From a virus (lineage: Duplodnaviria; Caudoviricetes): a stretch of 56,417 nucleotides of DNA. Within the stretch, counting starts at the first letter, position 1. Each line of letters starts with the position of its first letter. A model generated the notes under the pieces. It had not been told where the DNA came from. It worked only from the letters and a program-made list of their open reading frames with translations, and searched no databases. The stretch spans positions 1 through 56,417 of IMG/VR virus record IMGVR_UViG_3300049783_000966; one strand, given 5' to 3'. Below, in pieces: positions 5,424-55,089 of the stretch. Position numbers and translations under genes: made by a program.

Positions 5424-5457
5424 GATCCATGTATTATCCCTTTTAGAAAGCGAGATT

Positions 5458-19957: not shown

Positions 19958-20530
19958 TCAGTCTAACATTTCGGCCCATAGGCCGGTTGCAAAAGTGTTG
20001 GTCTCAAACTTTAATCGCGGTTCGCCGGTCGCTTGGTTGATTGCAGGTTGGCCTTGCTCATCAAAAATAGGACACAGATGGCCCGCGTCTACGCGCCAAC
20101 CGGCTGGCGTGGGATGGGTTAGAGGATATTGAAGAGACCACGGCCCCCAGGTTTCAGCGCTACCGAACGGTATGCGATTTCCTGTCACGCCCATGGCGTC
20201 CTCAATGGATGTATCAACAGGAACACGCACTGATGGTGCATCAGAGAACAGAGCCCAGCCGGTTAACTCTACAAAATCGCAACGTCTTTTTTCCATTTCT
20301 CCAAAGGTTATAAGCCTATCTTCCAATATCTGGACATCATAAACTTTGACGGAGTGAAACGGAGTCAGCCCGTGATAGTCGCGGTAAAATCGGGTTTCCT
20401 TGAAGTCCGAAAACTGTTCGGCTGTGTGCTCGGCCGCGTACAAAAAACCAAGTCCCACAAACAAAACATAAACCAAATTGGCTATGGGTTTGATGAACAA
20501 GTCGGATAGAGGCCTCATACGCGAATTCAT
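19958..20530 (-). CDS. Single-pass membrane protein in the lysis cassette
   Basis: N-terminal TM helix plus soluble domain, between holin and endolysin. Confidence 0.65.
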   Translation of the reverse strand: MNSRMRPLSDLFIKPIANLVYVLFVGLGFLYAAEHTAEQFSDFKETRFYRDYHGLTPFHSVKVYDVQILEDRLITFGEMEKRRCDFVELTGWALFSDAPSVRVPVDTSIEDAMGVTGNRIPFGSAETWGPWSLQYPLTHPTPAGWRVDAGHLCPIFDEQGQPAINQATGEPRLKFETNTFATGLWAEMLD

Positions 20531-20889
20531 TGGTCATTATCCTTTCGTACAGCAATTGACACTTTTCTTGCCTCAACCGTGTCCATGATAAGCCCTACTA
20601 TGATCACTCCCGTAAGACCCATTAGAAAACCACCTACCTGTCCCGTTTGATCATCAATCTCGACATCAAACCACTTTGCATAAAGCGAGAGGGCAAGTGG
20701 ACCTAAATATTGGGCGCAGATCCCCCCCGTCAGGACAGCGGTCAAGGCTGCATTAAAGCCACCACCTGTGCGCGTCCAACGAATGAAACCACCTGCCATA
20801 CCAGCTACAAATACGCTGGCTAAAACGTCGGAAAATGCGACCTGCATGGCAACACCAGTTCCAGCGGCTACTACAGAAGAGGCATCCAT
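20527..20889 (-). CDS. Holin
   Basis: About 3 TM segments, charged C-terminus, head of the lysis cassette. Confidence 0.7.
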   Translation of the reverse strand: MDASSVVAAGTGVAMQVAFSDVLASVFVAGMAGGFIRWTRTGGGFNAALTAVLTGGICAQYLGPLALSLYAKWFDVEIDDQTGQVGGFLMGLTGVIIVGLIMDTVEARKVSIAVRKDNDQ

Positions 20890-20988
20890 TATGAAGCCTC
20901 GCGAAAAACACAGCCCATCGGGCATGTTTTCATGAAGTTAATTTGTGGAAGCATTAAGCGGATCCTTGCAGTCGGGCGTTCATTCCAA

Positions 20989-21003
20989 CGGCACATCCTG
21001 CGC
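20989..21003 (-). promoter_or_regulatory. GGA-loop hairpin (CsrA-site-like) in the lysis leader
   Basis: mRNA GCGC-AGGAU-GUGC-CG; 14/15 identical to 48076-48090. Confidence 0.6.
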
Positions 21004-21044
21004 TCATGCGGTATTGTTGATATATCCCATTGTTTGGCTTGGCG

Positions 21045-33000: not shown

Positions 33001-35165
33001 GTGGCATCTATGATTGCCTCACCCATTTCAGACCCTACTTCACCCAGCGTGCGACGCATGTCTTCGATTGAATTTGCCTCAACCACGCCACGCTGTTCTT
33101 GAAGTTTTTGCAGGCGTCGTGACATCAGGGGGGACATGCCACCATTTTCGATTGACGCTTGTTTGCGCAGATTTGATATCTGTTGGTCGATTTCCTCAAC
33201 TGTTGACGGCATGGCGGCCGCATCTGCGGGGCGGTTGCCACGGGCCTCCACTGCATCAAAAAGACGGTCTGCAAACGGTCGCGCGTCCATTTCGATGACA
33301 TCGACATCACCATCGTCAATGGGCGGGGCTTCTGGCGCCTGTACGTCCGCTGGGCGGGGTGTGTCTGCGCCTGGTGCTGCGGCATCTGTTGAACCGGTGC
33401 GCAGATCGCGTGCGATGTCGAATTCGCTGGCATCAATGGCGATTTCCTCACCTTGGAAGCGAATAATGGCAGTTCCGTCTTCTTCACGTTGGAATACCGC
33501 TGTGATGTCTCGTCCATCAGGCGTGCGCAGATCCACGGATTGTCCGGGCTTCATGTCGGGGAACATCTGCGTTTGGGGGATTTCAGGCTCTACAACCGGC
33601 GCTGCGGCTGCCGCTTGAGCGATCGGCCCCATAGGGGGAACCGCTTGAGCGCTTTCGGGGTTTGCCGGATCCCCTTGAAGGGTTTCAGCGACTCCTTGAG
33701 CCATTGGGGACATTGGATCCCCAGCGGCAGCGGGGCTTGCACCCAAAGGCTGCTCGGCGGCAGCATCAGCCCCAGCGGCAGCCGCGGCAACCGGATCTTC
33801 TGCACCATCGTCTTGTTCATCCTCACGTCCTGCACGAGGGCGCATGCCCAATACACCAACAGGACCACCAGCCACGGCACCCATAACAAAGTTGCCCAGC
33901 GCCTCATCTGTCAAATCAACATCAAGGCCAGTCTGATTGGCGGTGACGGCGCGGGAGGTCACACCCTCGGCAACCTCTTGAAGGCCTTCTTCGGTGCCAG
34001 CAATCGCAACAGTTCCCAAAAGACGGGGCACAACGTTCGCACCGGCCAGAACGCCAATGCCACGATTGGCGATGTCAGACGTAATTCTGCCACCAACGGC
34101 ACCGATAGGGGCAGTGAATACACCCGACATATCGCCAGCATTTTCGGCAACACGGTCGCGCGCTTCCATGGGGGCCAAGCCACTGTTGACATATTGCTGA
34201 TAGATTTGGGTTTCTTGCAGTTCGCCGCTTTCAAACGCTTCGCCCACGATCTGTTCAGCGGTTTCTTTACCGCCTGTGTACGATTGACCGGCACCAGCTA
34301 CCATCGCGCCTGCGCCGCCAGTGAAATAACCAGCGATGATGATTGGTGCCAAGTTGCCAAACAGCGAGGTCATCGCGTGCCCAGCGCCGTTTAAGGTGAT
34401 TTTATCCCAATCCACCTCATTACCATCAAAGGCAGACATCATAGTTTCGGCGGCGGCAACGGCTGAATCCGACTGTTCGTCTTTGATGCCTTCACCCAAG
34501 CTGCGGATCCACGAACCCACGCCTTCGGTCGCTGCGCCTACACCTTCGGTAACTGCGACGGCGGTATCACCAACGCGTGCGCCAATTGTTGCGTCATCTT
34601 CGCTGTAACGGGCAGGGCGGGCAGCATCTACGGCTATGTCAGCACTGCCAATCAGGCCACCAATGCCTTCAACGGCCATTCCTGCGCCTTCAATGACGGA
34701 TCCGGCAGCGTTCGCCGCATAGTCAGTGATACCCCAATTGTTGTTCCGGCGTTCGCGCTGTGCTGTCTGACCTTCGGAGGGATAGACTTCGTCAGCAATC
34801 GAATAGGCCGCCTCAAGGATCTGCTTGGCCTCACCTTCGTCAGACGTCAGAACAGCGAGGGCTTGTTCGGGCGTGTCTCCGTTGGCGATGCGGGATGCAA
34901 AGAAGTGTGCGTCTTGGACGATTGATTCCTGTGTGATGTTGCCACCAACGGCGGCGCGGTCGGCCAGCGCCCAAACAACGTTGGCGGGTGCCGTTGTTTC
35001 CGTTGAAATCTGGTCGATGAAGTCTTTTGCGGTGGGTGCTGTGGCCTCAACGGGCGATTCCGCGCTGTCAGGACGTAGACCCAAAGGCGATGACGTGGCG
35101 CGGCGTGCGGCGATTTCCTCGGCGGCAGTGATGCGGGGGTCAGTCGAAAAAGCGTTTTTGGTCAT
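21045..35165 (-). CDS. Giant DarB-like polyvalent ejected protein: iPPase-like, Rmf-like, JAB/MPN, N6-MTase, strawberry-notch-type SF2 helicase, ART-PolyVal and PLxRFG domains
   Basis: GNYKKGH..DYG...GADGD.IDV..DEHKV; HNHP..S.FS..D; LEPTAGTG and NPPF; GDQTGVGKG, DESH, Q..GR.NR.GQ; VVYHGT...IKSV.N.GTFD; YFPLARFG. Confidence 0.9.
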   Translation of the reverse strand: MTKNAFSTDPRITAAEEIAARRATSSPLGLRPDSAESPVEATAPTAKDFIDQISTETTAPANVVWALADRAAVGGNITQESIVQDAHFFASRIANGDTPEQALAVLTSDEGEAKQILEAAYSIADEVYPSEGQTAQRERRNNNWGITDYAANAAGSVIEGAGMAVEGIGGLIGSADIAVDAARPARYSEDDATIGARVGDTAVAVTEGVGAATEGVGSWIRSLGEGIKDEQSDSAVAAAETMMSAFDGNEVDWDKITLNGAGHAMTSLFGNLAPIIIAGYFTGGAGAMVAGAGQSYTGGKETAEQIVGEAFESGELQETQIYQQYVNSGLAPMEARDRVAENAGDMSGVFTAPIGAVGGRITSDIANRGIGVLAGANVVPRLLGTVAIAGTEEGLQEVAEGVTSRAVTANQTGLDVDLTDEALGNFVMGAVAGGPVGVLGMRPRAGREDEQDDGAEDPVAAAAAGADAAAEQPLGASPAAAGDPMSPMAQGVAETLQGDPANPESAQAVPPMGPIAQAAAAAPVVEPEIPQTQMFPDMKPGQSVDLRTPDGRDITAVFQREEDGTAIIRFQGEEIAIDASEFDIARDLRTGSTDAAAPGADTPRPADVQAPEAPPIDDGDVDVIEMDARPFADRLFDAVEARGNRPADAAAMPSTVEEIDQQISNLRKQASIENGGMSPLMSRRLQKLQEQRGVVEANSIEDMRRTLGEVGSEMGEAIIDATRRTAASSKSDADLTGLESMLRSATKLGFDVTNDDVRKMDAIVQASEGKKNKQAFTRNAMNDLFKGRTRRDMQPKPDVIENNAAPMVDVAAITAAAADVDTDPTEAQKIAGNYKKGHFKWGGLDISIENAKGSTRSKKAKDGTGWSVVMPADYGDIKGTVGADGDNIDVYMGPSPESEKVFVVDQVDAETGLFDEHKVILGTNTEGEAVQIYTDGFSDNRGPDRLGGITSMTTADLNDWIKTGDMKQPVGKLRRDGDDAEIQTALADKLEGNEKEAELQGRKDHANGVERRLPSYIDPTDSVAGNAWYRGWDKANLEQPIDEPAPEADAVAAVDTSRVISQIEMDWEFKKLKPDEARVRLKEAGMSAPSRPRMDEILLAAARISGTQQGNDLQFVQVNTEAFEATGVEPYTRADTIYIKIDFFERKLIRQRGDFKALTEKGEEEVRRIMDGEITPSLDQAKAWDGMSEAERRELMLRMSGTKQGDGTLNKTSARAASKKWADLSDGIRTKMIERWNALDDDAAPALTENDTPPPDVLPSDDALLAVVDDPRALMVDFIDRVLEPTNGPNAHDRFLHFKTVDDLSKTAPAIRYMNRAGKATSFAARTKLADDFVREMIEKSPNRETGVFLDQNGMPIAIIRGKSGSASEGHRLDFPDYLVAGLVNGEVTYGTHNHPNNSAFSGADVTILANAGADMEVVAIGNAGSYHTAIRGKTKANAVQMHTAFHVTQQYVFEAMSPLVKAGTVTRENANKVHYALVNLAMDRAGLIEYTGTARDYLAITDEGYDAEAIVTEATTVAETSLRPSGSDVTESGDTDRDSQSGSSAEPIGSGRDTPQDAERVVADGDGTGRILDQGVDLAQITIIGRKLFNNWTKNVRKVGKTKGWTIFNDEIINTFRLMNPELSVDIRFPDASAAARWASENPFLEVRAAKNAEMDSQDLADRERANQPDQGVTAPTYQFLDQWWNTLIKARSAFSNILPDVSRQTKLNADKVWTDKDGLVRIIDTFLGSIGELDLRSPTARSAALPEGFSIKSRSKLSDENLIRVKGGAFRIVITNEGTVVGRDFYGDTDAEAVEKAVGWIGRNYPAQTEVTETPNTAPDSDPDFDGALDDMFGAPERTAEDIAKDMQDILRGLKESPDQFSNDQYDKLKPLFAEALGGVDTTGMDRRTIFSTMMKPLVTAGLTREDVTALQPFFTRYLDEDVSRETPTDTTPSGSVEAEKITIEFLRAFAAGDSFKTIVEARKLAAEALGRDITVDDHKMIEEAIEVAVVQHARDIATSGDTPDVIYDALVDLYAAQPILGQRTSGSIERQAYSTPAPLAYIASRRAGVADANMVLEPTAGTGMLLIEADASKIVANELDADRANSISQTFGPDITLTTSDATTMEMPTNVPSIIANPPFGAVFDGRKRVSWPLGVTTTTEVDHAIAWRALDNLAEDGSAVLLLGGVKKQMDGDARKKGYQSKSKRAFYKQLYDLYNVVDHFTVDGDLYKRQGAAWPVDVIVIKGRGKSSLPMPMAQAPAVLTTWADLKRKMEDGQQDAPTVGTAEQQPDANSGQLDLLSAPDAGSVSRRPDDARPTDDGQRDGSRSDDGRIDGDGSQTDVTDNSGDGSGIRGNERNPASGSPDVEPAMADPTGAADAESGIESTDIVNGPRNVPDRTVSARTRVDRDSTEIETNLQKHYVPRSNAKFAVGTLVPNNMQSAIQSALDTIEETHGDIDDFVAASLGWTRDQLLGTDDVPGYFSAEQVDAAAMAIYNAEQGKGFIIGDQTGVGKGRFVAGMLRYAHLKGYIPLFVTQKPNLYADMIRDLNDIGEENAINEVVVTNDNLTGMNAIPLEEGSDVKITSLTKAKNQKMLRNLASTGRLPEGIKYLFTTYDQMKTSSGKWPLRATAILAGGGNMFPVLDESHTAGGSGPIGWGGKREKGSTPENMAEFFRDLTQAAAGSVFSSATYAKNPSVMSLYGTTDLALTVDDIEDLAEAIEKGGVPLQQVLANQLVEAGQFARRERSYEGIEFKSHTIKVETQRSAALSKAIGGIFEFDETFMTDIRKKVGEKVAEDGATMMPDGSVGMSSVSSTNFASSLHNIVSQMLFSLKVNEVAARAIEAHKAGKKPIIAVSNTNEAILMQQMADEGVVLGDEMTVPFNTLLIRYMERLRMVNVKTIEGVSTKIRLNDEQIGTTAAKMFKDMEAELRDLDLGDMSGNPLDAILDKMRAAGMNVGEITGRQRVLVSGVVTARDSSQAFKKKTMQAYNSGKMDALLINKSGSTGFSLHATAAPNNDGKPRHMIVMQADPNIDVFMQMLGRVNRTGQIKNPTYELVGTDMAVERRPAAVLMRKMASLNANTTASKKGVVSLENVVDFLNSVGDKVTAEYLNENTEINAVLNVKYGKDDGIANLAQRITGRLVVLEPAKAEEIYAEIESRYEDVIAELDRLGQNPLEAKTLDLDARPMGSTVLREGGGTGSPLDQDTTVTLASVKKLGRSMTFDQAMAEADKARAGRTDEEINAEAAEMFDSRRDDYLLRYKNRIAAAEKMVASVAAKEDATDVQKTNAAKGVTNAKEALEREEIRFEGLKKRVLQASIGTIVQFESPLMNTEAVILGVDLSRMTDNPTAGSMLKMRLAVADASREIKIPMSRLYGLAPDVTLGIIPEGQARIAFDSGQSETREDRTIISGNMIDGFARFGTGQVVMFTTNKGVVTPGILMPQDFDLNKAVDEKAVVFQTGEQVVRFLDAVPRGLVTSDDKIAAIARRGDGYVITVMKKNGKAYYLNKSVRELLGDFDGRSGKTMDNRSDSRTDVGAALQEWINQLGAKFQVSTHKDEARMITGEMLPTFDTKAALAKGFEESESRFAQKKQTSTPAFKKWFGDSKVVDENGDPKVVYHGTDTTFDSFNGAAFFSTSEVATTYAEDRAHWGDGKSNVIAAYLSIKKLATDADIDVTAKALGIDGTDVHQGWLMVSVGMHPDAKRVIAHLKERGFDGAAFDNDYSMDDPFAEVETIAVFDPANIKSVNNRGTFDPNTPNMFNESGNQFGNVPINAKGWVKSQKDLAATAISDVMTDKFGALLSLVPGRALFTELGRNLSSARVYVRLKEEMDALRQDWQARSADTTSDWLKLARKDPAANEDLMDLMHSSTIAGFDPSEDYDADGRLSHAKMEIGRYGPDSSMYQWAQDVIETDGKRREDYAKLRAKYDALPPEFKKMFSTIAKTYTELGNAFEAAVVDNMKIAAQIALKRAKRHHKADIRKIEDDGLKGEARTEAKAKADAKLTRASARAGWALQARLASLRSEFESNRLKGPYFPLARFGNYFVTVRDASGSVVSFSRFEKKAEQRKEIARASKDKAMSVENGVLGDKATDLKGMIDPAFVADVQELMGDFDADPLLMDAIWQRWLETLPDQSIRTNSIHRKGREGYTGDAVRAFTSHTFHGAHQLARLKYGLKMSDALDDARDEAKRDKNPERAGFVVGEMEKRHNFTMTPTGGPIATAATSMAFVWYLGMTPAAAVVNLSQTTVVAPAILGARFRTFGALGALKEIGKAARDFVEGRADASKGSRVTADEKAALIEAYRRGTVDKTQAHELASVAETGVEYSDRREKVMRAVSFFFHHAERANREVTFLAAYRMAKAEKMAPDAAIEVAADVTWKSHFDYQNTSRPRIMQNDTMKILTVFRQFTVNMIYRLTKDMHAMLHSDDAVLRREARDQLLGITLSMFAHAGIRGVWGYGIIKSVFKLLVPGDDDDLDAWLQHALLLEGDGAGAASWNFGMGMVLNGTPGQLTGWSLSERIGMPTLWFRENNRRMDADQWYSRMIEEMLGPVVGIGAGAARGVKYAMEGDIIRGVETAVPKVLRDAMRAGRYTLDGVTTRRGDDLLEDISLWQGMSQLIGFTPAEIAERYDVNSRLMNRQSSIMDRRSGIQQSIRDAIIGGDSISSRDMDLMMEFNREFPEYPITNDTLSASIRSKLAASGRNEFGVQLNPRLNARIRAEQPPMVSN

Positions 35166-35188: not shown

Positions 35189-35209
35189 GCCCGCAATTCC
35201 TTTGCAGGC
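35189..35209 (-). promoter_or_regulatory. GGA-loop hairpin in the DarB leader
   Basis: mRNA GCCUGCAA-AGGAA-UUGCGGGC, 8-bp stem. Confidence 0.6.
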
Positions 35210-35216
35210 TAATCGA

Positions 35217-35247
35217 TGTTTACCGCACTTTAACTCTCCGCGACAAG
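35217..35247 (-). promoter_or_regulatory. Putative late promoter CTTG...GTGCGGTAAAC upstream of DarB
   Basis: 11-bp exact match (35218-35228) to 48105-48115, with the same spacing to an upstream CTTG. Confidence 0.55.
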
Positions 35248-46848: not shown

Positions 46849-46905
46849 GACGTGGTTTCCAGTTCAGTAAATGGGTTTTGACAGGGATCAGGATCAGAAA
46901 GTAGT

Positions 46906-46930
46906 GCGGGGCCCTAGAGGAGAGCCCCGC
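46906..46930 (-). terminator. Putative terminator after the MCP
   Basis: gcggggc...gccccgc stem followed by actacttt on the minus strand. Confidence 0.55.
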
Positions 46931-46938
46931 CTAATTGC

Positions 46939-48045
46939 TTATGTGACCGGTGCGGCCGCTGTATCAACTGCCATGACACCAAAGTCAGAACCGATTCCAG
47001 CTTGGTTTTTGTAGCGCGTCTTCTTCACACCGCAAATCATACCAGCCGCAATGGACACTTGGTTTTCATAGTCTGTGGACTCTTCGACCCATGACATACG
47101 GGAAGACGAACCACGTCCGTAGGCTTTGACACCGGCTTGACGCCCAAGGAACAACGCGCGGGATACGTTGACGTTACCGCCTGCACCATAGTCAGAGAAC
47201 CGGCGAATGTTGTTGTGCGAGTGCAGCGAGACGTTGCCGATTGTGCCCATTTGATCTGTAAAGATCGGGTTGTCGGATCCGCGAGAACCCGCGGCCTTTT
47301 GGATTTCAAGCCAATCGCCTGCGGCACCGCTTGTGCGGAGGTCATGCTTTTGCCAATCGTTCATCAGCATAACAAAGTGGCTTTTTGCGCCATCTTTGAT
47401 GGGCTGCATGTTTACAACATCAGGGTTCGTAGCGTTGAGCATGCCGACCTTGGCAATAACCCGTTCGATCAGCGCAACGGACATTTTATCCGCGGCAGCA
47501 AGATCAGCTTTTGAAGTTGCATCGCCGCCATATGTGATGTGGGCTGCGTCGGGTGCTTCGATTGGGTTGCCAGCAAAGTTTGCTTCGGTGAAGATTTTGT
47601 CTTCATTTTCCGCGTTGTTGCCCAAATCGCCGGACAGATAGCAGAATGTCGCGTCATCGTCCCATTCAGCCATATAGTCGCCGGTACGGTCGCGCATCAG
47701 CTTGCGCATATCGTGGATTGTGCGCTGACGGGACATCCGACCACCACCAGAACCGGGCTTACGGACTTGGTCGATCTTGATTTCGTCTTGCAGGAACGTG
47801 AGGGCTTCTTCATTTCCTTCGGCGCGGTTGTCGCCATAGACCGGCTTCTCACGGAAACGCATGTTCAGGTCAAAGAAGATCGTGTCGCCTGCGTCTTTGG
47901 TCAGGTCGACCTTTTCTTGAATGATCGCGTTTTCGGAGGTGTTGGTGAATTTTTTGAAGTACGACTTCTTTGCCATGTCGATGGCAAGGGCGGTCGCCCA
48001 CTTCTTCTGGTTTTGGGCCGATGCGTTGGTAATGCGGGATTCCAT
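46939..48045 (-). CDS. Major capsid protein, N4-gp56 family
   Basis: L.KDAGD.I.FDL...GDNR.EG.EE.L....IDQVR...GG.MS.QRT.HD.R; C-terminal DFGV..VDT. Confidence 0.92.
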   Translation of the reverse strand: MESRITNASAQNQKKWATALAIDMAKKSYFKKFTNTSENAIIQEKVDLTKDAGDTIFFDLNMRFREKPVYGDNRAEGNEEALTFLQDEIKIDQVRKPGSGGGRMSRQRTIHDMRKLMRDRTGDYMAEWDDDATFCYLSGDLGNNAENEDKIFTEANFAGNPIEAPDAAHITYGGDATSKADLAAADKMSVALIERVIAKVGMLNATNPDVVNMQPIKDGAKSHFVMLMNDWQKHDLRTSGAAGDWLEIQKAAGSRGSDNPIFTDQMGTIGNVSLHSHNNIRRFSDYGAGGNVNVSRALFLGRQAGVKAYGRGSSSRMSWVEESTDYENQVSIAAGMICGVKKTRYKNQAGIGSDFGVMAVDTAAAPVT

Positions 48046-48075
48046 GGTTGTGCGTCCTTTGGAAGTAACAAATAT

Positions 48076-48090
48076 CGGCACTTCCTGCGC
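48076..48090 (-). promoter_or_regulatory. GGA-loop hairpin (CsrA-site-like) in the MCP leader
   Basis: mRNA GCGC-AGGAA-GUGC-CG, upstream of the AAGGA RBS. Confidence 0.6.
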
Positions 48091-48103
48091 ACTATGTGCT
48101 GAA

Positions 48104-48134
48104 CGTTTACCGCACATTGCGGCAATCGTGCAAG
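48104..48134 (-). promoter_or_regulatory. Putative late promoter CTTG...GTGCGGTAAAC upstream of the MCP
   Basis: TTGCAC-18-TAAACG; 11-mer shared with the DarB upstream region. Confidence 0.55.
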
Positions 48135-48136
48135 CC

Positions 48137-48427
48137 CTACGATAAAATACCCTTTTGAACAGCGATAGGGACACTTCGGGCGACGTCGACCATTATAACC
48201 AAACTCGACGTTGGGTTTGCTTCCTTCAAGAAGATTTTCCCAACATCTATTGATATTTCCACAAGGTCATTGATGTAGAGAGGCAAGGGAATCTTGCGCA
48301 CGACTTGATTGTGCCTCTCAACCGTCAACACAGCTGCATCAATGGAAAACACCATCGCTGCATCCCCAATCTGTATGACGAGGGGTTGGTCTATGATCCG
48401 GCTAAGAGGCGACTTGTGAACGAACAT
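48137..48427 (-). CDS. CsrA-like (carbon storage regulator fold) protein, apparently a tandem single-chain form
   Basis: LSR.I.Q.L.I.IGD resembles the CsrA N-terminus; C-terminal L.I.VDVARSVPI resembles VRIGVNAPKEVSV; scaffold-CsrA-MCP synteny as in Bcep22-like phages. Confidence 0.55.
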   Translation of the reverse strand: MFVHKSPLSRIIDQPLVIQIGDAAMVFSIDAAVLTVERHNQVVRKIPLPLYINDLVEISIDVGKIFLKEANPTSSLVIMVDVARSVPIAVQKGILS

Positions 48428-48445: not shown

Positions 48446-49405
48446 TTAATCGCGCAAGTAGGCGTCTCGTTCGGCTTCCGACATACTCGCCATTGCTGCT
48501 TCTGCACTGTAAAGTTCTTGGGTGTTCGTCACGTTGGTGACTGCCTTGTCAATCGCGCCGAACCGGCTGTCATTTGGGCTGTTCAAATCGGCGGCCGGCG
48601 CTGTTTTCAACGTGGTGGGTGCGCCCGGTCTTGGTTCTGTGCTGACCTTCAATTTGCCTTCATCAGGATCGACTGGCGGTATCACTGGTGCTGCGCCTGT
48701 CAAAGGGATCCCCATGGCGTCTGCGGTGATTTTATAACGCTCATAGGCCAGCTTTATGTTTTGATCCATGTCACGGCGTGGAAATTGCGTATTAACGGCA
48801 CGCAGTTCAGCGTCCCAGCCTGCGTTGTGTTCAGCGGTTTGTAGGGCTGGGTTGATTGCGTGGAAGTTGTCCAGCTTTCCATACCATTGATCAGCTATGG
48901 CGTTCTGGCTTTGTTGCCGCATAGCATTGGCGGATTCAATGACAACGCGCGAATTCACAATCGTTTTATCAACATCCATTAGGCGTGTTGTGAATTCTTC
49001 GTCATCGATGTCGCCTGCCTTATATTCGTCCATCACAGCCTTCTTGGCAGCTTCGGCGGCAGTTAGTTCTTGCTGCGCTTTTGTGGTGTCGGGGATCTGC
49101 TCTTGTTTTGCCACTGGCGCAGGTTGGGCGGCTTCAATAGCTGCGGCATCTTCATCAGCCTTTGCTTGTTTGACGGATGCTTCTTCGGCTGCCGCTGCAT
49201 CTGTGATGGCCTGTTGATCGGCAATAATGGCATCGCGCTCGTCTTCCGGCAGCGCTTCAAGATCTTCAAGCGTGAATTCTTCCGGCAAGCCATCAGCATC
49301 CAGCGCGCGTTCTGGCGTTTCGACTTCGGGTGTTTCTACCGCGACATTAACGGCAGCATCTTTGTCTTCTTCTGTGATGGCGGCATCTGGGTTTGCAGTG
49401 TTCAT
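48446..49405 (-). CDS. Capsid scaffolding protein
   Basis: Acidic, helical, between portal and MCP; C-terminal MSEAERDAYL. Confidence 0.75.
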   Translation of the reverse strand: MNTANPDAAITEEDKDAAVNVAVETPEVETPERALDADGLPEEFTLEDLEALPEDERDAIIADQQAITDAAAAEEASVKQAKADEDAAAIEAAQPAPVAKQEQIPDTTKAQQELTAAEAAKKAVMDEYKAGDIDDEEFTTRLMDVDKTIVNSRVVIESANAMRQQSQNAIADQWYGKLDNFHAINPALQTAEHNAGWDAELRAVNTQFPRRDMDQNIKLAYERYKITADAMGIPLTGAAPVIPPVDPDEGKLKVSTEPRPGAPTTLKTAPAADLNSPNDSRFGAIDKAVTNVTNTQELYSAEAAMASMSEAERDAYLRD

Positions 49406-49417
49406 GGCGAGGGTTCC

Positions 49418-51751
49418 TTAGTTCATTGGGGGTTGTGGGGGCATCGCGTCTGGCGCTGCTTCTGGGTTTGGCTGTGGCTGTGGTTGCGGTTGTTGTTGTG
49501 TGGCCGGATCGCCGGGGGGCAGGGCGTTAGGATCTGCCATTGGTGGGCCGCCCTGTGGCTTGGTGGCGTTCAATCGTTGTTGAATCGCTGTTGCCATAAT
49601 TTGGTCGGCTGTCGCGGCAGCGTTGGGCACACCCATAAGTGAAATTGATGTTTCAATCGCGCTCTGGATGTTGGCGAGGTAGAGCCCATCCATTTCAGCC
49701 TCGCTAAGTTTGGCTTGAGCCATAGCGCGCATGCCTTCGCCTTGGGCTTTATTGGCTTTGCCCTCTTTTTCGGCTTTGTCTGCCATTGCCATTGACTGCT
49801 CGAACTCCGCCTTTGCCGCTTTTGACTTCTCCAGTGCCAACGTTTCTTCGTCGGGATTGTTTGGATCGGCGTCGGGATCTGCAACACCAGTGATTTGGCG
49901 GATGCGTTTGACAATTTCATCTTGCTTGGGAATATCCATGGCTTCGATAACCAAGTCAGCAATCTGCATAGCAAACATTGGGTTGGCCTGACCAATGACG
50001 CCAACAAGGGCGACAAGCTGTTCAACGGCTGCCTGTCGGTGTGTTGCGCGGTAGTCTTCCTCGGATACGATAAAGTCTGCCTTGGTGAGGCCAATGAAGT
50101 TGTTCTCTTCGCCGTCAATGCTGTCGTCGTTGATCCCCACATACTCGGGATTTCCGCGCTTATTGGTGATCCTAAAATTCTTCTTCTCGGTGAAGAACTG
50201 CTCGACGTTGGATAGAACCTTTTCGCCGTGGATCTTGCGGCAAAAACGCAGGTTTTCAAAGAAAGTGTTCGTTGTCAGTTGGCCTTGATCTTGTCGGGCA
50301 GTGATGGCCTTACCGGATGTGGCGTTGGATGACCGGCCCATATTTTCATTGGTAACGCCAGATGTCTGCTCAATCATGGAAATACCGCGCGACATCGCAT
50401 CACTTTGCGCGTTGGCCAGTGCTAGATCAGTCGTGGTTTGCGGCGCTTGTGAGCCCTCATTGTAAACGATGTACGCATCAGGTCGCAGAACTTCCTCACG
50501 CATCGCTTCGTGATCGTCGGTGGCGTTTTTGGAAATTACAGTCTTTTGCGCGGACAGGTGCCAAAGAGCCTTGCTGGCGCGCTTGTTAATATCGATCTGG
50601 ATACTTCGCACGCCACGGATCATTCCATAAGGGAAACCTGTTTCAGCATCACGATATCCCCACATAGGTGTGAAGGGGAAACGGTTGTGGCGATATGGGC
50701 TTTCAGTATCGATCAGCAAGCCCTGTTCACACATGATAGCGACGCGCACACGCTCCTTGACCTTACTGGCGATGGTTGCGCGGCCTTCGTTGATTTCTGC
50801 AACGTGGCCTTCTGACCATTTGTCGAAGATTTCGCCTGTAAAGTCACCTCCACGTAGAAATTCCGTTTCCTCCGGGACACGATACCAGACCTCAATCAAC
50901 CGAACGCGTTTCCGGCTAGACATTTCGGAATAGAGTGACGAGCCAGCAAAGTCGTTGATTGCCATTTCCTGCGCGTCCATAGCGTCATCGCCTGACTGCG
51001 ACGTTGCGTGGCGGGACTCATATGTGGTTTCGACGGATTGGCGTATGACTTCCGCGCGGTGTGGGAACATTGTGATAGCGCGATCAAGATCCAGCCACTT
51101 GGGGCGGAACATATAACGGCCATCTGATAGATCCCATTCCGTGGCTGCGGAATCATAGATGATATTGCGCCAGCTTTCGTGCCGCTCAAATACAATCTCG
51201 CGTCCATCTTCCGGATCCTGCACACCAGTTTCCATCCAAGACAGACCTGCTTTGACCTGCTCCCCGAATGATCGGCTTTCATGCATGGGGCGGTGACAGA
51301 CATCCGATAGATATTTCATCAACTCGGTCTTGCGTTCTGCCTGTGCCAGCCCTTCCTTGCGTCGTGGAAGGATTGAATAGTCCATGGGCTTCTGACGTTG
51401 AGAACCAAGGATCCAGTTAACGGACGTGAATGTGACGTTGTAGACCAATGGGACCTGACCACGCGATTCAAGGACGGCGATATCGGCTTCGTCCCATTGT
51501 TTGTGATCGTAGATTGCCTCGTCAGTCGCCATTTCCATCCGTGGGATGTAGTGAACATTCAATTCGCGCTGATAGTGCCCCATGAGGTTGCGGTGAACCG
51601 CCATCATGCTTTGGCTGTCGAGAGGATCTGGTTCTTCGTCTTCCTCGGGCTCCTTGCCCCATCCAGCATAGGAATCGCCGGGAACCTCGGACGAATGCTT
51701 GCGAAAAGCATCTTCGGGGCGGGTGTATTCGTCTTCTTCTCGCTCAAACAT
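49418..51751 (-). CDS. Portal protein (P22-like; alternative start at 51787)
   Basis: YD..QW......L..RGQ.PL.YN; SPY.HNRFPFTP.W; PYG.IR...Q.D.NKR.SK; SG.AI.ARQ.QG. Confidence 0.92.
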   Translation of the reverse strand: MFEREEDEYTRPEDAFRKHSSEVPGDSYAGWGKEPEEDEEPDPLDSQSMMAVHRNLMGHYQRELNVHYIPRMEMATDEAIYDHKQWDEADIAVLESRGQVPLVYNVTFTSVNWILGSQRQKPMDYSILPRRKEGLAQAERKTELMKYLSDVCHRPMHESRSFGEQVKAGLSWMETGVQDPEDGREIVFERHESWRNIIYDSAATEWDLSDGRYMFRPKWLDLDRAITMFPHRAEVIRQSVETTYESRHATSQSGDDAMDAQEMAINDFAGSSLYSEMSSRKRVRLIEVWYRVPEETEFLRGGDFTGEIFDKWSEGHVAEINEGRATIASKVKERVRVAIMCEQGLLIDTESPYRHNRFPFTPMWGYRDAETGFPYGMIRGVRSIQIDINKRASKALWHLSAQKTVISKNATDDHEAMREEVLRPDAYIVYNEGSQAPQTTTDLALANAQSDAMSRGISMIEQTSGVTNENMGRSSNATSGKAITARQDQGQLTTNTFFENLRFCRKIHGEKVLSNVEQFFTEKKNFRITNKRGNPEYVGINDDSIDGEENNFIGLTKADFIVSEEDYRATHRQAAVEQLVALVGVIGQANPMFAMQIADLVIEAMDIPKQDEIVKRIRQITGVADPDADPNNPDEETLALEKSKAAKAEFEQSMAMADKAEKEGKANKAQGEGMRAMAQAKLSEAEMDGLYLANIQSAIETSISLMGVPNAAATADQIMATAIQQRLNATKPQGGPPMADPNALPPGDPATQQQPQPQPQPNPEAAPDAMPPQPPMN

Positions 51752-52196
51752 CGTCCCAAATATCCCTCTGTTCGACAATTTTGCCATGTAGGCTCTTTGT
51801 CATATGGCCAGTTATTGAGAGGGGGCGTTTAGGCGCCGGTGGCATTCGTATTAAGTCGTCTAAGCGTGATCTTACAACTGACATAATTTGAAATATGTCG
51901 TCGTTATTCCCTTGGTTCTTACCCAAGTAGGGGCAAAAGTCTATCGCCAACAATGCGGCTTCGTATTCGTTACCGGTTTCTTCGGCCCATTTCCATGCGG
52001 ATGACAAGGGCACAACACAGGGTGTGACTTCTGCAAGCGATCGATGCGCGGGAACCAGCACAAGGCACGGATCGTTGTTTCCGATAAACAGCCACGTACC
52101 AATAACGCGGATGTCTCCAATCTTGTGATCGAAGTGCATATACATCAAATCGAGCGCTGGGCGTTCTTTGACTGGTGTGAATGATGTTGGTGTCAT
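51744..52196 (-). CDS. Hypothetical protein between TerL and portal
   Basis: Coupled to both neighbours; PCLVL...VVPLSSAW...L.DLI.MPP. Confidence 0.75.
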   Translation of the reverse strand: MTPTSFTPVKERPALDLMYMHFDHKIGDIRVIGTWLFIGNNDPCLVLVPAHRSLAEVTPCVVPLSSAWKWAEETGNEYEAALLAIDFCPYLGKNQGNNDDIFQIMSVVRSRLDDLIRMPPAPKRPLSITGHMTKSLHGKIVEQRDIWDDV

Positions 52197-53794
52197 GCGA
52201 CGAGTCCTGACCTTCTGTTTTTGGTGCGGCTGCTTATTGTCTTGCTGGCAGCTTTGTATCCCTGCGCCTTTTGGCGAAGTGCATCTGTTGCGTGGCTTGC
52301 GTCGTCGTGGCGTGGCACGTTTGTCCACGTTTGAAGACGGATGTTGTATTCGCGCGTGTAGTTTTCGACGTGTTTCAGACCTTCCTTGGTGGTCTCTTCG
52401 TTGAAACAGTAGGTTGCGAAGTCGTTCCGCATCAGGTCGATGCCATGTTGGATGGTGGACACGCGCGGGACCAGCTGCCAATCCCATGACGGCTTTGCTT
52501 CTCGCAGTTGCGATAAAAGAGACCGGACGTCCTCAATACCTTGGCGTTGTTGTGCCGCATCGTGTGGTAGGTACATCGTGCCGACACTGACCTGTAACGT
52601 GTCGATCCAGTTTATGAAGGCTACGAAGCCCTCTCCGGCTGCTTCACGATAATTTATGAAGTGATCCATTGAATTGACGGATTGGTGAAGCCAGCACACA
52701 CAGGTATCGCTTGCTCCAATATCCCAGAAACCGTTGACGGGCAGTCCGGGGCGATGGGGGAACATTCCGATACGATTTTCGCGACGCGCGGCAGCAATAA
52801 CATGGTGCATGTATTTGCCTTCGTTTCCGCTTTTCCAACATTCCTCGGGCGTCGACGGATATTCACGCCACATCAGTTCAGGTTCTACGCCAAAGTCTTC
52901 GTCGCGCTTATTAACGTACCAAGCGCGCTGTTCCAGATCGATGGCAACGTCCATCACACCTTCAATCAGGTTGAAGTATTTGTGATCGGCAGGGGATATC
53001 ACGACGCCATCCGGATCCATGCGATACGCCGGATCCATCCACCACGCGTAAAAGTGGAATTTGTAGTCTGCGATGGTCAGTTGTTTGTTTGACTTGTGCT
53101 TTGCCTCTGCGCGGCGTGCCATATCGTAGAAATATCCGGACTGACCTTCCGCGGTGGATTCGATGAACACAAATCCGTCACTTGGCACTGCTTGTAGCGA
53201 ACCGGTGGTTAACTCTTTCGCTTTATCGGGGTGATTTGCTGCAATCTTGCCCATTTCTGACACGTGCAGAAAGTGAACGGTGCCAGATCTTGCAGAGGTA
53301 ACAACGCGGATCTGTGAATTGTTGTGCTTGAATATCAGTTCGGACTGAGTGTCCTTTTTCAGTGGCATAACCTTGAGCAGGAACGTGGGAAGGCGTTCAT
53401 ATGCATACATGATCTTATCGCGGAACAGTTCGCCGGCCGCTAAGAGATCCTGTGCGATAACCACTACGTTCCGGTCTTCGTTGAACAGGGCAAAATCAAG
53501 CGCAAGTATTTCAATCAGTGTTGAAAACCCCATTTGGCGGGCTTTTAGGATCAGGTTTCGCCCATGCGCCTCCGCTAAGAACTTTCGCTGGGCAAGGTTG
53601 GGGGTGAATGGCTGTTCAAGTGAAACCTCTGCGCTGTCTTCTGTGGCGGCAGCTATCTTCACTTTGATTTTGTAAAGTCTGCCGGACGTGATGCGCCAGT
53701 ACCAATCATCGAGATTCCGTAGAACCTCTGCATCCTCTGGGTTGATGTCCAGCGCCTCTAGGGCTGCAATGGTTTGGGATAGACTATCGCTCAC
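52193..53794 (-). CDS. terL: Terminase large subunit
   Basis: ILKARQMGFST Walker A, LHVSE Walker B, ESTA motif, WDIG..D nuclease, HD.ASH..DA. Confidence 0.95.
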   Translation of the reverse strand: MSDSLSQTIAALEALDINPEDAEVLRNLDDWYWRITSGRLYKIKVKIAAATEDSAEVSLEQPFTPNLAQRKFLAEAHGRNLILKARQMGFSTLIEILALDFALFNEDRNVVVIAQDLLAAGELFRDKIMYAYERLPTFLLKVMPLKKDTQSELIFKHNNSQIRVVTSARSGTVHFLHVSEMGKIAANHPDKAKELTTGSLQAVPSDGFVFIESTAEGQSGYFYDMARRAEAKHKSNKQLTIADYKFHFYAWWMDPAYRMDPDGVVISPADHKYFNLIEGVMDVAIDLEQRAWYVNKRDEDFGVEPELMWREYPSTPEECWKSGNEGKYMHHVIAAARRENRIGMFPHRPGLPVNGFWDIGASDTCVCWLHQSVNSMDHFINYREAAGEGFVAFINWIDTLQVSVGTMYLPHDAAQQRQGIEDVRSLLSQLREAKPSWDWQLVPRVSTIQHGIDLMRNDFATYCFNEETTKEGLKHVENYTREYNIRLQTWTNVPRHDDASHATDALRQKAQGYKAASKTISSRTKNRRSGLVA

Positions 53795-54210
53795 GAGGAT
53801 ATCACGCGACTGACATCAAGGGCGGCTTCCCATTGGAATTGGTGTTCGGGTGTCTCGTCTAGGTGGTCTGAAATATAGATCGACATCCTTGCGCTTAAAA
53901 TTGCATGCAGGATTGATCTTGGATCAAGGAATTCTCGGAATAGTGACACAGTCAGGAAGTCGTTGGGGCGGTTGCTGTCTTCCATCCGCACTACCAGCAT
54001 GTCGGCAATCCATGGCTTGGGCGGCACCACTGCGAAAGCTGCATACGCGATCAGGCCATCAATTAGGCTTAGGTGGGGGCTGTTCGTCCGTTCCATGTTA
54101 TCGCGCGCGCCAGCCAGTGTCATGTTCACGTGATCTAAAAGCGAGACTTGCGGTTGTCCCAAGTGTCCTGTCGGGTTTGAAATTAACGGATTGGACGGAA
54201 TAAGTGTCAT
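53791..54210 (-). CDS. Hypothetical protein
   Basis: Coupled ORF between TerS and TerL. Confidence 0.65.
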   Translation of the reverse strand: MTLIPSNPLISNPTGHLGQPQVSLLDHVNMTLAGARDNMERTNSPHLSLIDGLIAYAAFAVVPPKPWIADMLVVRMEDSNRPNDFLTVSLFREFLDPRSILHAILSARMSIYISDHLDETPEHQFQWEAALDVSRVISS

Positions 54211-54962
54211 TCTACGACACCGTCTTGCAATCGCTTGTCTCCGAATGCCGGAGGCGATCCTTTCTTTCCCAAATCTTTCAGGAAGTTGGCGAACACGGTG
54301 GATATTTCATCACCAGGCTTTCGTTCATCGTCAAAGACGCCAAGGAATCGCGCGACTTGGTCGAGTGCATGCGTTTGGTCGTGGGTTTTGATTTCGATGC
54401 CATGCTGGGTCTGTTTTACGCCTGCATATAGCGCGCGTGAGGCAGGTGGCAGCTTGTTTGTATCCTTGAGCACAGTGAAGCTATCTCCACGTCCGTCACA
54501 GCGCTGACAGGTTGCGCAAGGATCGCCTTTGCGTCTGTATCCATATCCACCTTCGTTGGTTGGTTCATCGAAAGATGCGCGCTTTGCTTCGGGGATCTGT
54601 CGCCAGCTTTGGTGTGTCTCTTCAAACTCCGCCTTGGTGCGCCAATGGTACTGGCCTTTCTTGCCATAGCAGAACCGGCAGGGGGCGACTTCAAGGCTCA
54701 TGATGTCGTTAATGTCGGCTGTGGCGATCATCAGGTATCGGGAAGCGACATCCGCCACGGATATCATCGCAATCTCCATAGCCTTTTTGGTTAACTCTGC
54801 GATGCGGGATTTGACCATCGGCTCCTTCATCATCTTGTTCCCGTGAGTGCTTGCAGATGCCTTCGCATATCCGGCGCGTACCGCTGCCTTAGCAATGCTG
54901 CGGTCCTTCATATATTCGACGCAAAACGCGTCTTTTTTTGCTGAAAGTTTGCCTGTGGCCAC
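54207..54962 (-). CDS. terS: Terminase small subunit
   Basis: LSAKKDAFCVEY......AAVRAGYA; C..C.G zinc insert; LYAGVKQT..GIE; GTG start at 54962. Confidence 0.88.
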   Translation of the reverse strand: MATGKLSAKKDAFCVEYMKDRSIAKAAVRAGYAKASASTHGNKMMKEPMVKSRIAELTKKAMEIAMISVADVASRYLMIATADINDIMSLEVAPCRFCYGKKGQYHWRTKAEFEETHQSWRQIPEAKRASFDEPTNEGGYGYRRKGDPCATCQRCDGRGDSFTVLKDTNKLPPASRALYAGVKQTQHGIEIKTHDQTHALDQVARFLGVFDDERKPGDEISTVFANFLKDLGKKGSPPAFGDKRLQDGVVE

Positions 54963-55089
54963 GGTTCTAGCTTCCTGCCGGATGTGCGTTACGCGTCCAC
55001 ACTTCTGGTTTTTTTGATAACAGGTCAAGATTATTCGAGTTTGTTTGATAATCACGGCCATTATTTTGATCAATTGGCCCGATTTTACC

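What the first reader, a model, noticed from the sequence alone, without database searches (positions are those of the whole stretch)
48046..48427. Candidate self-contained phage Csr system: a CsrA-like protein plus AGGA(A/U)-loop hairpins in late leaders
Seen: a 96-aa beta-rich ORF sits between the scaffold and MCP genes. Four late 5' regions carry a hairpin with an AGGAW pentaloop on the mRNA strand: MCP (GCGC-AGGAA-GUGC, within 48076-48090), holin (GCGC-AGGAU-GUGC, within 20989-21003, 14/15 nt identical to the MCP site), DarB (GCCUGCAA-AGGAA-UUGCGGGC, 35189-35209) and TerS (GGC-AGGAA-GCU over the RBS, 54969-54979). In the first three the GGA lies well upstream of the RBS position, so it is not simply a Shine-Dalgarno. 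Established: CsrA/RsmA binds GGA in hairpin loops (consensus like ACANGGAUGU); Bcep22-like phages carry a CsrA-annotated gene at this locus; most Alphaproteobacteria lack csrA. Inference: the phage supplies both the regulator and its sites to coordinate capsid, packaging, ejection-protein and lysis expression at the RNA level, independently of any host Csr system.
Basis: partly seen in the sequence, partly recalled or inferred. Interest (0 to 1): 0.85.

Follow-up and report, generated by a model that had tools for sequence, protein, structure and literature searches.

The report
Conserved capsid/lysis mRNA leader switch
Upstream of the capsid gene, and again upstream of the lysis genes, this phage carries a short RNA leader element shared by the whole Bcep22-like phage group, which probably controls when these proteins are made; the small neighbouring gene sits where relatives keep a CsrA-like RNA-binding regulator but is only weakly like it.

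Summary

**MCP and holin sites.** These are two copies of one element, GCGCA-NGA-(N)GUGC.
- It is in the MCP leader of 15 of 15 Bcep22-like phages examined.
- A model built from it found further copies in the leader of a lysis gene in 5 of 10 genomes.
- The 4-bp hairpin is thermodynamically weak (z -0.7).
- The box is complementary to the translation initiation region, so the predicted ground state sequesters the GGA and brackets the SD.

**DarB site.** It is a real 8-bp AGGAA hairpin. It shares an exact 11-mer with the MCP leader but is not a box copy.

**TerS site.** It is an ordinary Shine-Dalgarno sequence.

**The 96-aa protein.** It occupies the slot where relatives encode a Pfam-positive CsrA-like protein.
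- It has no Pfam CsrA match and only one homologue.
- It shows only weak, two-island profile similarity to phage CsrA-likes.
- Its fold is not found in the PDB, but it resembles a small set of viral proteins, one of them named carbon storage regulator.

**Verdict.** The cis element is real and, in my searches, undescribed. The CsrA-type protein-RNA link is plausible but unproven.

The parts
48137..48427 (-). 96-aa all-beta ORF (P0003) in the syntenic slot of the phage CsrA-like gene
   Evidence: The ATG lies 18 nt after the stop of the upstream gene. Its one homologue, P0005, is 94 aa, 32/92 identical and gap-free, E 3e-16. AF2 pLDDT is 88.4 for the best model and 58-68 for the other four. There is no Pfam CsrA match.
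48046..48136 (-). MCP leader (91-nt intergenic region)
   Evidence: Sequence read. A 56-nt stretch (48043-48098) folds at -14.9 kcal/mol, z -2.31, 5 of 200 shuffles as good.
48074..48098 (-). Box copy 1. Local hairpin 48078-48090, loop AGGAA 48082-48086.
   Evidence: CM R1 scores it 26.3 bits, but it is a training sequence. It aligns with 14 other MCP leaders.
48050..48066 (-). Partner strand of the box. ACUUCC (48061-48066) pairs with GGAAGU, and CGCAC (48050-48054) pairs with GUGCG. The SD AAAGGA (48055-48060) sits in the internal loop between them.
   Evidence: RNAfold and duplexfold.
48105..48115 (-). GTGCGGTAAAC, an 11-mer shared exactly with the DarB leader; a promoter-like or other upstream element
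   Evidence: There are only two exact copies in the window, both in late-strand leaders. The sigma-70 consensus scan does not call a promoter here.
46939..48045 (-). Major capsid protein gene
   Evidence: Pfam PF13252 2.3e-57 and phrog_334 2.8e-105.
20987..21011 (-). Box copy 2, in the lysis leader. The 15-mer is at 20989-21003 and the loop AGGAU at 20995-20999.
   Evidence: CM R1 scores it 20.5 bits, E 0.0023, and it is not a training sequence. It is an exact pattern match.
20889..20954 (-). 21-codon small ORF preceded by the SD AAGGA. Its TAA overlaps the holin ATG by one base.
   Evidence: Read. It was not tested for conservation.
20527..20889 (-). Holin-like gene. An in-frame alternative ATG lies at 20925.
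   Evidence: phrog_2359 holin 2.5e-8 and phrog_13918 3.6e-16. ORF list.
35189..35209 (-). DarB-leader hairpin: 8-bp stem, AGGAA loop (35197-35201)
   Evidence: -12.2 kcal/mol, z -2.43. It is not a terminator by the scan and is not found by R1.
35218..35228 (-). Second exact copy of GTGCGGTAAAC, 16 nt 5' of the AGGAA loop
54971..54976 (-). AGGAAG, the Shine-Dalgarno of TerS (GTG at 54962)
   Evidence: The protein starting at 54962 hits phrog_51 terminase small subunit at 5.1e-28. Fold z +0.45.

Best explanation
The 91-nt MCP leader carries a conserved 5'-UTR switch of Bcep22-like phages. A box, GCGCA-NGA-(N)GUGC, lies about 12 nt after a promoter-like element.

The box can adopt two mutually exclusive structures:
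- a small hairpin that presents A-GGA-N in its loop;
- a stronger helix with the region around the Shine-Dalgarno and start codon, which closes the translation initiation region.

A second copy heads the lysis cassette, so capsid and lysis expression share one control.

The most likely trans factor is the product of the gene just upstream. In relatives this is a CsrA-like protein. Here it is a divergent 96-aa beta protein. Binding to the box would hold the open form and activate translation.

Shown: the element, its conservation, its second copies, and its complementarity to the TIR. Inferred: the promoter assignment in this phage, the switch itself, the direction of the effect, and any protein-RNA contact.

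My odds: the cis element is a real RNA-level regulator, 0.8. The neighbouring protein is its effector, 0.4.
For: **Conservation of the box**
- It is in 15 of 15 MCP leaders, from phages whose MCPs are about 48-52% identical to the window's where I have a figure (8 listed; L003 49%). Columns C12, G15, A16, G18, T19 and G20 are invariant.
- In the relatives it follows clear sigma-70-type hexamers, read by eye.

**Local hairpin**
- The inner four pairs hold in 14-15 of 15 sequences.
- Pair 9-21 is G-C in 12 and A-U in 3.
- The covariation score is 0.217 against 0.127 in shuffles (7 of 500 reach it). It is 0.014-0.140 when the partner is slid by 1-3 columns.

**Box-TIR pairing**
- The MFE folds of 14 leaders run from -15.6 to -30.9 kcal/mol and, as I read the dot-brackets, join the box region to the SD/AUG region in most.
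- Cognate 5'/3' duplexes average -17.5 kcal/mol against -12.6 for non-cognate pairs.
- In 11 of 15 sequences, at most 28 of 300 shuffles do as well.
- In Itty13, PEp14, Parlo and ZX1, different flanking sequences keep complementarity to the spacer before the AUG.

**Second copies**
- Model R1 was run on 10 genomes. I checked 10 of the 11 non-MCP hits with E <= 0.05; the eleventh (Skulduggery 34047) I placed inside SKUL_28 from that gene's coordinates.
- Five of them lie in the sense-strand leader of a lysis gene: the window's holin, PBC5 amidase (26.5 bits), Parlo endolysin, the Itty13 PG-binding protein, and Skulduggery lysozyme.
- All five of these leaders also fold back onto their TIR.

**The protein**
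- It occupies the same slot as Pfam-positive CsrA-likes (32.2 and 29.1 bits against a cut-off of 27).
- A phage-CsrA HMM scores it 3.6 bits (25 of 2000 shuffles as high). It scores the homologue P0005 7.2 bits (2 of 2000). In both, residues 15-26 match the first half of the profile and residues 76-93 the second half.
- hhalign gives E 0.0019 and 0.00095.
- Two independent AF2 models give the same strand pattern.
- Both models hit the same BFVD set at probability 0.99-1.00 and TMq 0.48-0.64. The set includes a 114-aa protein named 'Carbon storage regulator'.
Against: **The protein**
- No Pfam CsrA match was listed at E up to 10.
- An HMM of alignment A2 finds nothing in the window at E up to 1.
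- hhalign probabilities are only 14-22%.
- No PDB chain has E <= 0.001, the best TMq among the 50 rows shown is 0.39, and none of them is a CsrA.
- Four of the five AF2 models of P0003 have pLDDT 58-68.
- By the profile alignment, the residue at the position of what I recall as CsrA's key Arg is V in both proteins.

**The RNA**
- GGA is not invariant. It is AGA or UGA in Itty13, Parlo, ZX1, PEp14 and PBC5.
- The local hairpin is weak (z -0.7). In the MFE fold the GGA is paired rather than in a loop.
- DC1 and L003 show no better-than-shuffle box-TIR pairing.
- Bcep22's own lysis and DarB leaders show no box by eye. In 5 of 10 genomes no lysis-leader copy was found.
- No sigma-70 promoter is called in the window's three leaders.

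**Sampling**
- All carriers belong to one phage lineage, so co-occurrence of box and CsrA-like gene is not independent evidence.
- No close relative of this phage was found, so its own sites cannot be tested for fine-scale conservation.
Confidence: 0.42

Rival explanations
1. The element acts in cis only or depends on the host. The leader helix sets mRNA stability or basal translation of capsid and lysis genes, or it is opened by a host activity. Candidates are RNase III cutting the long helix, the ribosome itself, or host CsrA where one exists. The 96-aa protein would then have an unrelated role, for example in assembly.
For: - Long helices of -15 to -31 kcal/mol span the leaders.
- The box-TIR pairing needs no protein to explain it.
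- P0003 fails every direct CsrA family test.
- In JC1, one CsrA peptide was found in virions (section 3.8 passages of PMC9144972). That would also fit a structural role.
- In PBC5 the CsrA-like ORF is about 30 kb from the MCP gene.
Against: - The box sequence, not just its pairing, is kept across phages of Burkholderia, Ralstonia, Pseudomonas, Erwinia, Serratia, Klebsiella and Sinorhizobium. This points to a factor that travels with the phage.
- A closed TIR on the most abundant virion protein calls for an efficient opener.
- A CsrA-like gene was found in 14 of the 15 phages that carry the box; the window phage is the exception.
Confidence: 0.33
2. The box works at the DNA level, as an operator or promoter-proximal site for a phage or host transcription factor that controls late promoters.
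For: - It sits at a fixed distance, about 12-15 nt, after the -10-like hexamer in MCP and lysis leaders.
- Its sequence conservation exceeds its structural covariation. One G-U pair is kept in 14 of 15 sequences.
- In the window, an exact 11-mer is shared by the MCP and DarB leaders.
Against: - Each box has a complementary partner next to its own SD/AUG, at variable spacing and with different sequences in MCP and lysis leaders. A DNA site would not need that.
- All copies lie on the sense strand of the gene downstream.
Confidence: 0.12
3. The four AGGAW hairpins are coincidental SD-like strings in purine-rich leaders and have no shared function.
For: - The genome-wide frequency is at chance.
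- TerS is a plain SD, and the two 4-bp hairpins have z -0.7.
Against: - The box is conserved in 15 of 15 MCP leaders and recurs before lysis genes in 5 genomes.
- In intergenic regions, 3 of 6 AGGAW have stems of 4 bp or more.
Confidence: 0.05

Closest known systems
CsrA/RsmA family (Pfam PF02599) and its GGA-containing mRNA leaders
   Same: - A small beta-rich protein gene sits next to leaders that hold an A-GGA-N motif in a potential hairpin loop.
- A second GGA lies in the SD, 28 nt downstream in the MCP leader and 33 nt downstream in the lysis leader.
- The relatives' proteins pass the Pfam cut-off.
- From recall, not from a call: CsrA can activate translation by opening an SD-sequestering hairpin.
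   Different: - The window protein is 96 aa with 9 predicted strands, has no Pfam match, and lacks the Arg by alignment.
- The loop triplet is AGA or UGA in a third of the MCP boxes.
- No sponge RNA was seen. Rfam finds nothing in the window at gathering scores.
CsrA-like 'moron' genes of Lessievirus, Gervaisevirus and related phages (Bcep22 gp54, JC1 gp47)
   Same: The gene order is the same: portal, scaffold-like gene, small gene, MCP. The MCP leader box is the same.
   Different: - The passages I read treat the gene as a moron that acts on the host, or as possibly virion-associated (PMC9144972, PMC8450108, PMC11879866).
- None of those passages names a phage mRNA target.
- The window's protein is not detectably a member by sequence.
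Translation-initiation-region sequestering leaders opened by a protein or by processing
   Same: A 5' segment pairs with the SD/AUG region, and an alternative local hairpin competes for the same bases.
   Different: Here the 5' segment is conserved in sequence across genera and is duplicated on two late transcription units. The opener is unknown.

Membership tests
CsrA (PF02599) | Match to the family HMM above the gathering score (27 bits) | tested here: not met
   No CsrA hit is listed for P0003 or P0005 at E up to 10. Bcep22 and UAM5 proteins score 32.2 and 29.1 bits. PF02599 finds nothing in the window's six frames.
CsrA (PF02599) | About 60-70 aa with five strands and a C-terminal helix (recalled) | tested here: not met
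   96 aa. AF2 gives 9 strands and one short helix at residues 8-13, in two independent models.
CsrA (PF02599) | Fold likeness to solved CsrA/RsmE structures | tested here: inconclusive
   Foldseek against the PDB gives no hit at E <= 0.001 and none of the 50 rows shown is a CsrA. A chain-wise search may miss an interleaved dimer. BFVD gives TMq 0.58 and 0.63 to a 114-aa viral protein named carbon storage regulator.
CsrA (PF02599) | Remote sequence homology to phage CsrA-likes | tested here: inconclusive
   HMM of 120 phage CsrA-likes: 3.6 bits (25 of 2000 shuffles as high) and 7.2 bits (2 of 2000). hhalign E 0.0019 and 0.00095, probability 14-22%.
CsrA (PF02599) | Conserved Arg in the last strand that contacts RNA (recalled) | tested here: not met
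   In the profile alignment...VPIAV and ...IPIKV place V at that column. The alignment itself is weak.
CsrA (PF02599) | Homodimer; binding of GGA RNA | not testable with these tools
   No dimer or RNA-binding prediction was run.
Bcep22-like phage CsrA slot | Small gene downstream of the portal and scaffold-like genes and upstream of the MCP | tested here: met
   The gene directly precedes the MCP in 10 of the 12 relatives with this layout. RPZH6 and YL4 have one extra ORF between. 8P and Dartukuta have a different context.
MCP/lysis leader box (defined here, model R1) | Box GCGCA-NGA-(N)GUGC on the sense strand in the leader of the MCP or a lysis gene | tested here: met
   Window 48074-48098 (26.3 bits, a training sequence) and 20987-21011 (20.5 bits, E 0.0023, not a training sequence).
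MCP/lysis leader box (defined here, model R1) | The same, applied to the DarB and TerS sites | tested here: not met
   R1 reports neither 35189-35209 nor 54969-54979 at E up to 10.
Any Rfam family | Match at the gathering score | tested here: not met
   0 matches in the whole window.

The most novel reading that the evidence does not exclude
Bcep22-like phages run a self-contained post-transcriptional late switch. A phage-borne, CsrA-derived protein opens a conserved leader that otherwise sequesters the ribosome-binding region on both the capsid and the lysis mRNAs. This ties them to prior expression of the portal/scaffold operon. In this phage the regulator has evolved into a 96-aa form that lacks the canonical Arg, which would make it a new structural variant of the CsrA RNA-binding module.
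Probability: 0.3. Interest if true: 0.8.

Novelty: new variant of a known kind. Interest (0 to 1): 0.62.

Why it matters
CsrA-like genes in phages are usually read as morons that manipulate the host. The passages I saw name no phage target and say the role in the phage life cycle is barely tested.

A conserved box on the capsid and lysis leaders, next to the gene itself, gives a concrete and cheaply testable target. It also offers a reason why the gene is fixed in the structural module, including in phages of hosts reported to lack csrA.

It adds a candidate RNA family with no Rfam match in this window. It also describes a timing mechanism for late proteins that would work without a dedicated late transcription factor.

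Tried and rejected
**Tandem-duplicated, single-chain CsrA.** hhalign of alignment A1 against itself gave no off-diagonal repeat (E 0.74). I do not claim it.

**The ORF as a homologue of the other small genes that some relatives hold between scaffold and csrA** (Bcep22 gp53 type). BLASTP and phmmer against 7 such ORFs gave at most 2.6 bits. Rejected.

**DarB hairpin as an intrinsic terminator.** The scan does not call it on the minus strand.

**Sigma-70 promoters in the window's leaders.** None was called. The promoter assignment rests on positional analogy with relatives and on the shared 11-mer.

**Searches for relatives of the 96-aa protein**
- Word search: only itself.
- Profile search with A1: only the two known proteins.
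- tblastn against phages at E 10: none.
- Viral contigs and metagenome contigs with A1: none.
- The full HMMER search gave P0005 plus three long repeat proteins. I took these as spurious; I inspected only P0006, and its BLASTP E was 0.1.
- ESM Atlas: no usable hit by features; by structure, only beta-meander and propeller look-alikes.

**Close relatives of the phage, searched by MCP.** The nearest is 49% identical. Genome contigs gave none.

**R1 hits inside coding sequence, taken as chance**
- Parlo 52105, JC1 45970 and UAM5 52942.
- G001 24199 and 22070.
- Skulduggery 34047. I placed this one inside SKUL_28 from that gene's coordinates and did not inspect it.
-.

**Limits of model R1.** It missed the 4-nt-loop MCP box of UAM5 and scored PBC5's MCP box at only 13.3 bits.

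**Literature.** I saw only search listings and 'find' passages of PMC9144972, PMC8450108, PMC7366521 and PMC11879866. Gill et al. 2011 (PMC3187461) is not held, so I cannot say whether it mentions the leader. My statement that the box is undescribed rests on searches and on Rfam. Supplementary files were not opened.

Full report
**What is there**

The window is a whole virus record of 56,417 bases, estimated 96% complete. Its late genes run on the minus strand:
- TerS, 54207-54962 (phrog_51)
- TerL
- portal, 49418-51787
- a 319-aa scaffold-like gene, 48446-49405
- the 96-aa ORF, 48137-48427
- the MCP, 46939-48045 (PF13252 2.3e-57)
- virion genes
- a 4706-aa ORF, 21045-35165 (called DarB-like only by its size and position before the lysis genes; I did not scan it)
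- a holin-like gene, 20527-20889 (phrog_2359)

**Is it more than chance?**

Genome-wide it is not. On the minus strand, 7 of 120 AGGAW have 3 or more flanking pairs, which is about the number expected.

Within the 746 nt of late-strand intergenic regions the picture differs. There, 3 of 6 AGGAW have stems of 4 bp or more (binomial 1.5e-4; a post hoc test).

Thermodynamics:

| Site | Energy (kcal/mol) | z-score | Comment |
|---|---|---|---|
| MCP 4-bp hairpin alone | -4.0 | -0.7 | weak |
| Holin 4-bp hairpin alone | -5.4 | -0.7 | weak |
| DarB 8-bp hairpin alone | -12.2 | -2.43 | notable |
| TerS region | -10.9 | +0.45 | the SD, 8 nt before the GTG |

**The comparative result**

The MCP is about 50% identical to those of Bcep22, the Ralstonia Gervaiseviruses, Sinorhizobium phage PBC5, Erwinia PEp14, Pseudomonas Skulduggery and Klebsiella SopranoGao.

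I fetched the region in 14 relatives. In the leader of every MCP gene, 15 of 15 with the window, there is one box: GCGCA-NGA-(N)GUGC. It lies about 12 nt after a sigma-70-like promoter. In the relatives that promoter is plain by eye, for example TTGCAT-17-GATAAT in PEp14.

The local hairpin:
- Its inner pairs hold in 14-15 of 15 sequences.
- It shows some compensatory change (G-C in 12, A-U in 3).
- Covariation is modest: score 0.217 against 0.127 in shuffles, 7 of 500 shuffles as high.

The loop triplet is GGA in 10 sequences and AGA or UGA in 5.

**The box pairs with the start region**

The MFE folds of 14 leaders run from -15.6 to -30.9 kcal/mol. As I read the dot-brackets, most join the box region to the SD/AUG region.

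In the window:
- GGAAGU pairs with ACUUCC just 5' of the SD.
- GUGCG pairs with CGCAC just 3' of the SD.
- The SD is left in an internal loop (-14.9 kcal/mol, z -2.31).

Across the set:
- Cognate duplexes average -17.5 kcal/mol against -12.6 for non-cognate pairs.
- In 11 of 15 sequences, at most 28 of 300 shuffles do as well. DC1 and L003 do not stand out.
- In Itty13, PEp14, Parlo and ZX1 the bases 5' of the box differ between phages, yet each stays complementary to its own spacer before the AUG.

The small hairpin and the long helix use the same bases. The element therefore looks like a two-state switch whose predicted ground state is closed.

**A second transcription unit**

I built covariance model R1 from 11 MCP boxes and ran it on 10 genomes.
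- As expected, it returned its own training sites.
- It gave 11 further hits with E <= 0.05.
- Five of the 11 lie on the sense strand, within 17-110 nt of the start of a lysis gene:
  - the window's holin leader (E 0.0023)
  - PBC5 amidase (26.5 bits, and this genome was not in the model)
  - Parlo endolysin
  - the Itty13 peptidoglycan-binding protein
  - Skulduggery lysozyme (with 89 for PBC5)
- The other six lie inside coding sequence.
- All five lysis leaders again fold the box onto their own TIR.

Bcep22 itself shows no box in its lysis or DarB leaders by eye.

**DarB and TerS**

R1 does not find either site. The DarB leader does share an exact 11-mer, GTGCGGTAAAC, with the MCP leader. 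These are the only two exact copies in the window. Each lies 16-18 nt 5' of an AGGAA loop. DarB may therefore share an upstream signal and a loop motif with the MCP in this phage, but this could not be tested in relatives. TerS is an SD.

**The protein**

The ORF is probably a real gene.
- It is tightly spaced after the scaffold-like gene.
- It has a gap-free 35% identical homologue of 94 aa.
- Both proteins give consistent AF2 models.

It sits where 12 relatives encode a 60-70-aa CsrA-like protein; the two I scanned (Bcep22, UAM5) pass the Pfam cut-off.

| Direct family test | Result |
|---|---|
| Pfam CsrA | no match |
| A2 profile on the window | no hit |
| Foldseek against the PDB | no match |
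| Internal repeat | none |

The weak signals agree with each other.
- An HMM of 120 phage CsrA-likes matches two islands in both proteins..IGD.. near residue 20 and ..D(V/A).(R/K).(V/I)PI.. near residue 85. The scores are reached by 25 of 2000 and 2 of 2000 shuffles.
- hhalign gives E about 0.001-0.002 at low probability.
- Both AF2 models hit the same nine or ten small viral proteins in BFVD (TMq 0.48-0.64). One of these is named carbon storage regulator.

My reading is that the gene is a much-diverged descendant of the CsrA-like gene, with about 40 extra residues between the two islands. I give this odds of about one half. Against canonical GGA recognition, the column that I recall as the RNA-contacting Arg holds V.

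**Mechanism proposed**

The box-TIR helix keeps the capsid and lysis mRNAs closed. A box-binding protein made from the portal/scaffold operon holds the local hairpin or the single strand, and so opens the TIR. Capsid protein and lysis functions would then follow the assembly nucleators.

Repression by bridging the box and the SD is the mirror alternative, and I cannot exclude it. Nothing here shows binding.

**Comparison with what is known and novelty**

Phage csrA genes are known. In the passages I read they are discussed as morons or host manipulators. One knock-down, in phage PTXU04, gave smaller plaques.

No phage mRNA target is named in those passages or in the listings of searches. Rfam has no match in the window. 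I could not read Gill et al. 2011.

The element is therefore, as far as I could check, an undescribed cis-regulatory RNA. It is attached to a known kind of regulator, with an atypical protein in this phage.

**Limits**

- There are no close relatives of this phage.
- All carriers belong to one lineage.
- Promoters in the window are inferred, not called.
- The host was not determined.
- There is no experimental evidence.

Noticed in passing
window 20889-20954 (-) and 20925: A 21-codon ORF with a good SD (AAGGA) lies between box copy 2 and the holin. Its TAA overlaps the holin ATG by one base. The holin frame also has an in-frame ATG 12 codons upstream. This could mean translational coupling or a dual-start holin.
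   Followed up: no
window 46849-46938 (-): Just after the MCP stop there is a GC-rich inverted repeat (GCGGGGC...GCCCCGC) followed by a U-rich stretch. It looks like a terminator, so the MCP may sit between its own start and stop signals, as annotated in Bcep22.
   Followed up: no
alignment A2; L032 (PBC5): The residue at the column that I recall as CsrA's RNA-contacting Arg is R in five phages whose MCP box has GGA: Bcep22, UAM5, JC1, Skulduggery and L003. It is G, K, C or L in four phages whose box has AGA or UGA: Itty13, Parlo, ZX1 and PBC5. PEp14 (UGA) keeps R, and the window (GGA) has V. This may be protein-RNA co-variation, but it has not been corrected for phylogeny.
   Followed up: partly
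L022 (PEp14) 1727-1798, L023 (Parlo) 1725-1787: In these MCP leaders the 6-bp box hairpin is followed directly by five or six U, which looks like a terminator. This raises the possibility of attenuation in the enterobacterial branch. ZX1 lacks the U-run.
   Followed up: no
L031 (PBC5) 2300-2370 (-): The annotated start of PBC5 orf5 (amidase) lies inside the box. An ATG 33 nt downstream has a strong SD (AAGGAG) and seems the likelier start. The annotated orf6 overlaps the MCP gene on the opposite strand and looks spurious.
   Followed up: no
window 51744-52487 (-): A 247-aa frame with a DNA methyltransferase PHROG match (phrog_10057, 5.7e-29, residues 109-237) lies between TerL and portal. It overlaps both as listed, so its true start is probably internal.
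   Followed up: no
L014 (Bcep22) 400-420, L001 (Bcep22) 5430-5450, L002 (UAM5) ~4985-5005: The Bcep22 MCP and DarB leaders and the UAM5 MCP leader share a TATAGAATCG(G/A)ACCA string. It is probably a common late promoter and start region, which parallels the shared 11-mer of the window's MCP and DarB leaders.
   Followed up: no
BFVD hits: A set of 81-160-aa viral proteins, most without names, shares the predicted fold of P0003 and P0005. It may be an unrecognised family of long CsrA-like or other small beta proteins.
   Followed up: partly
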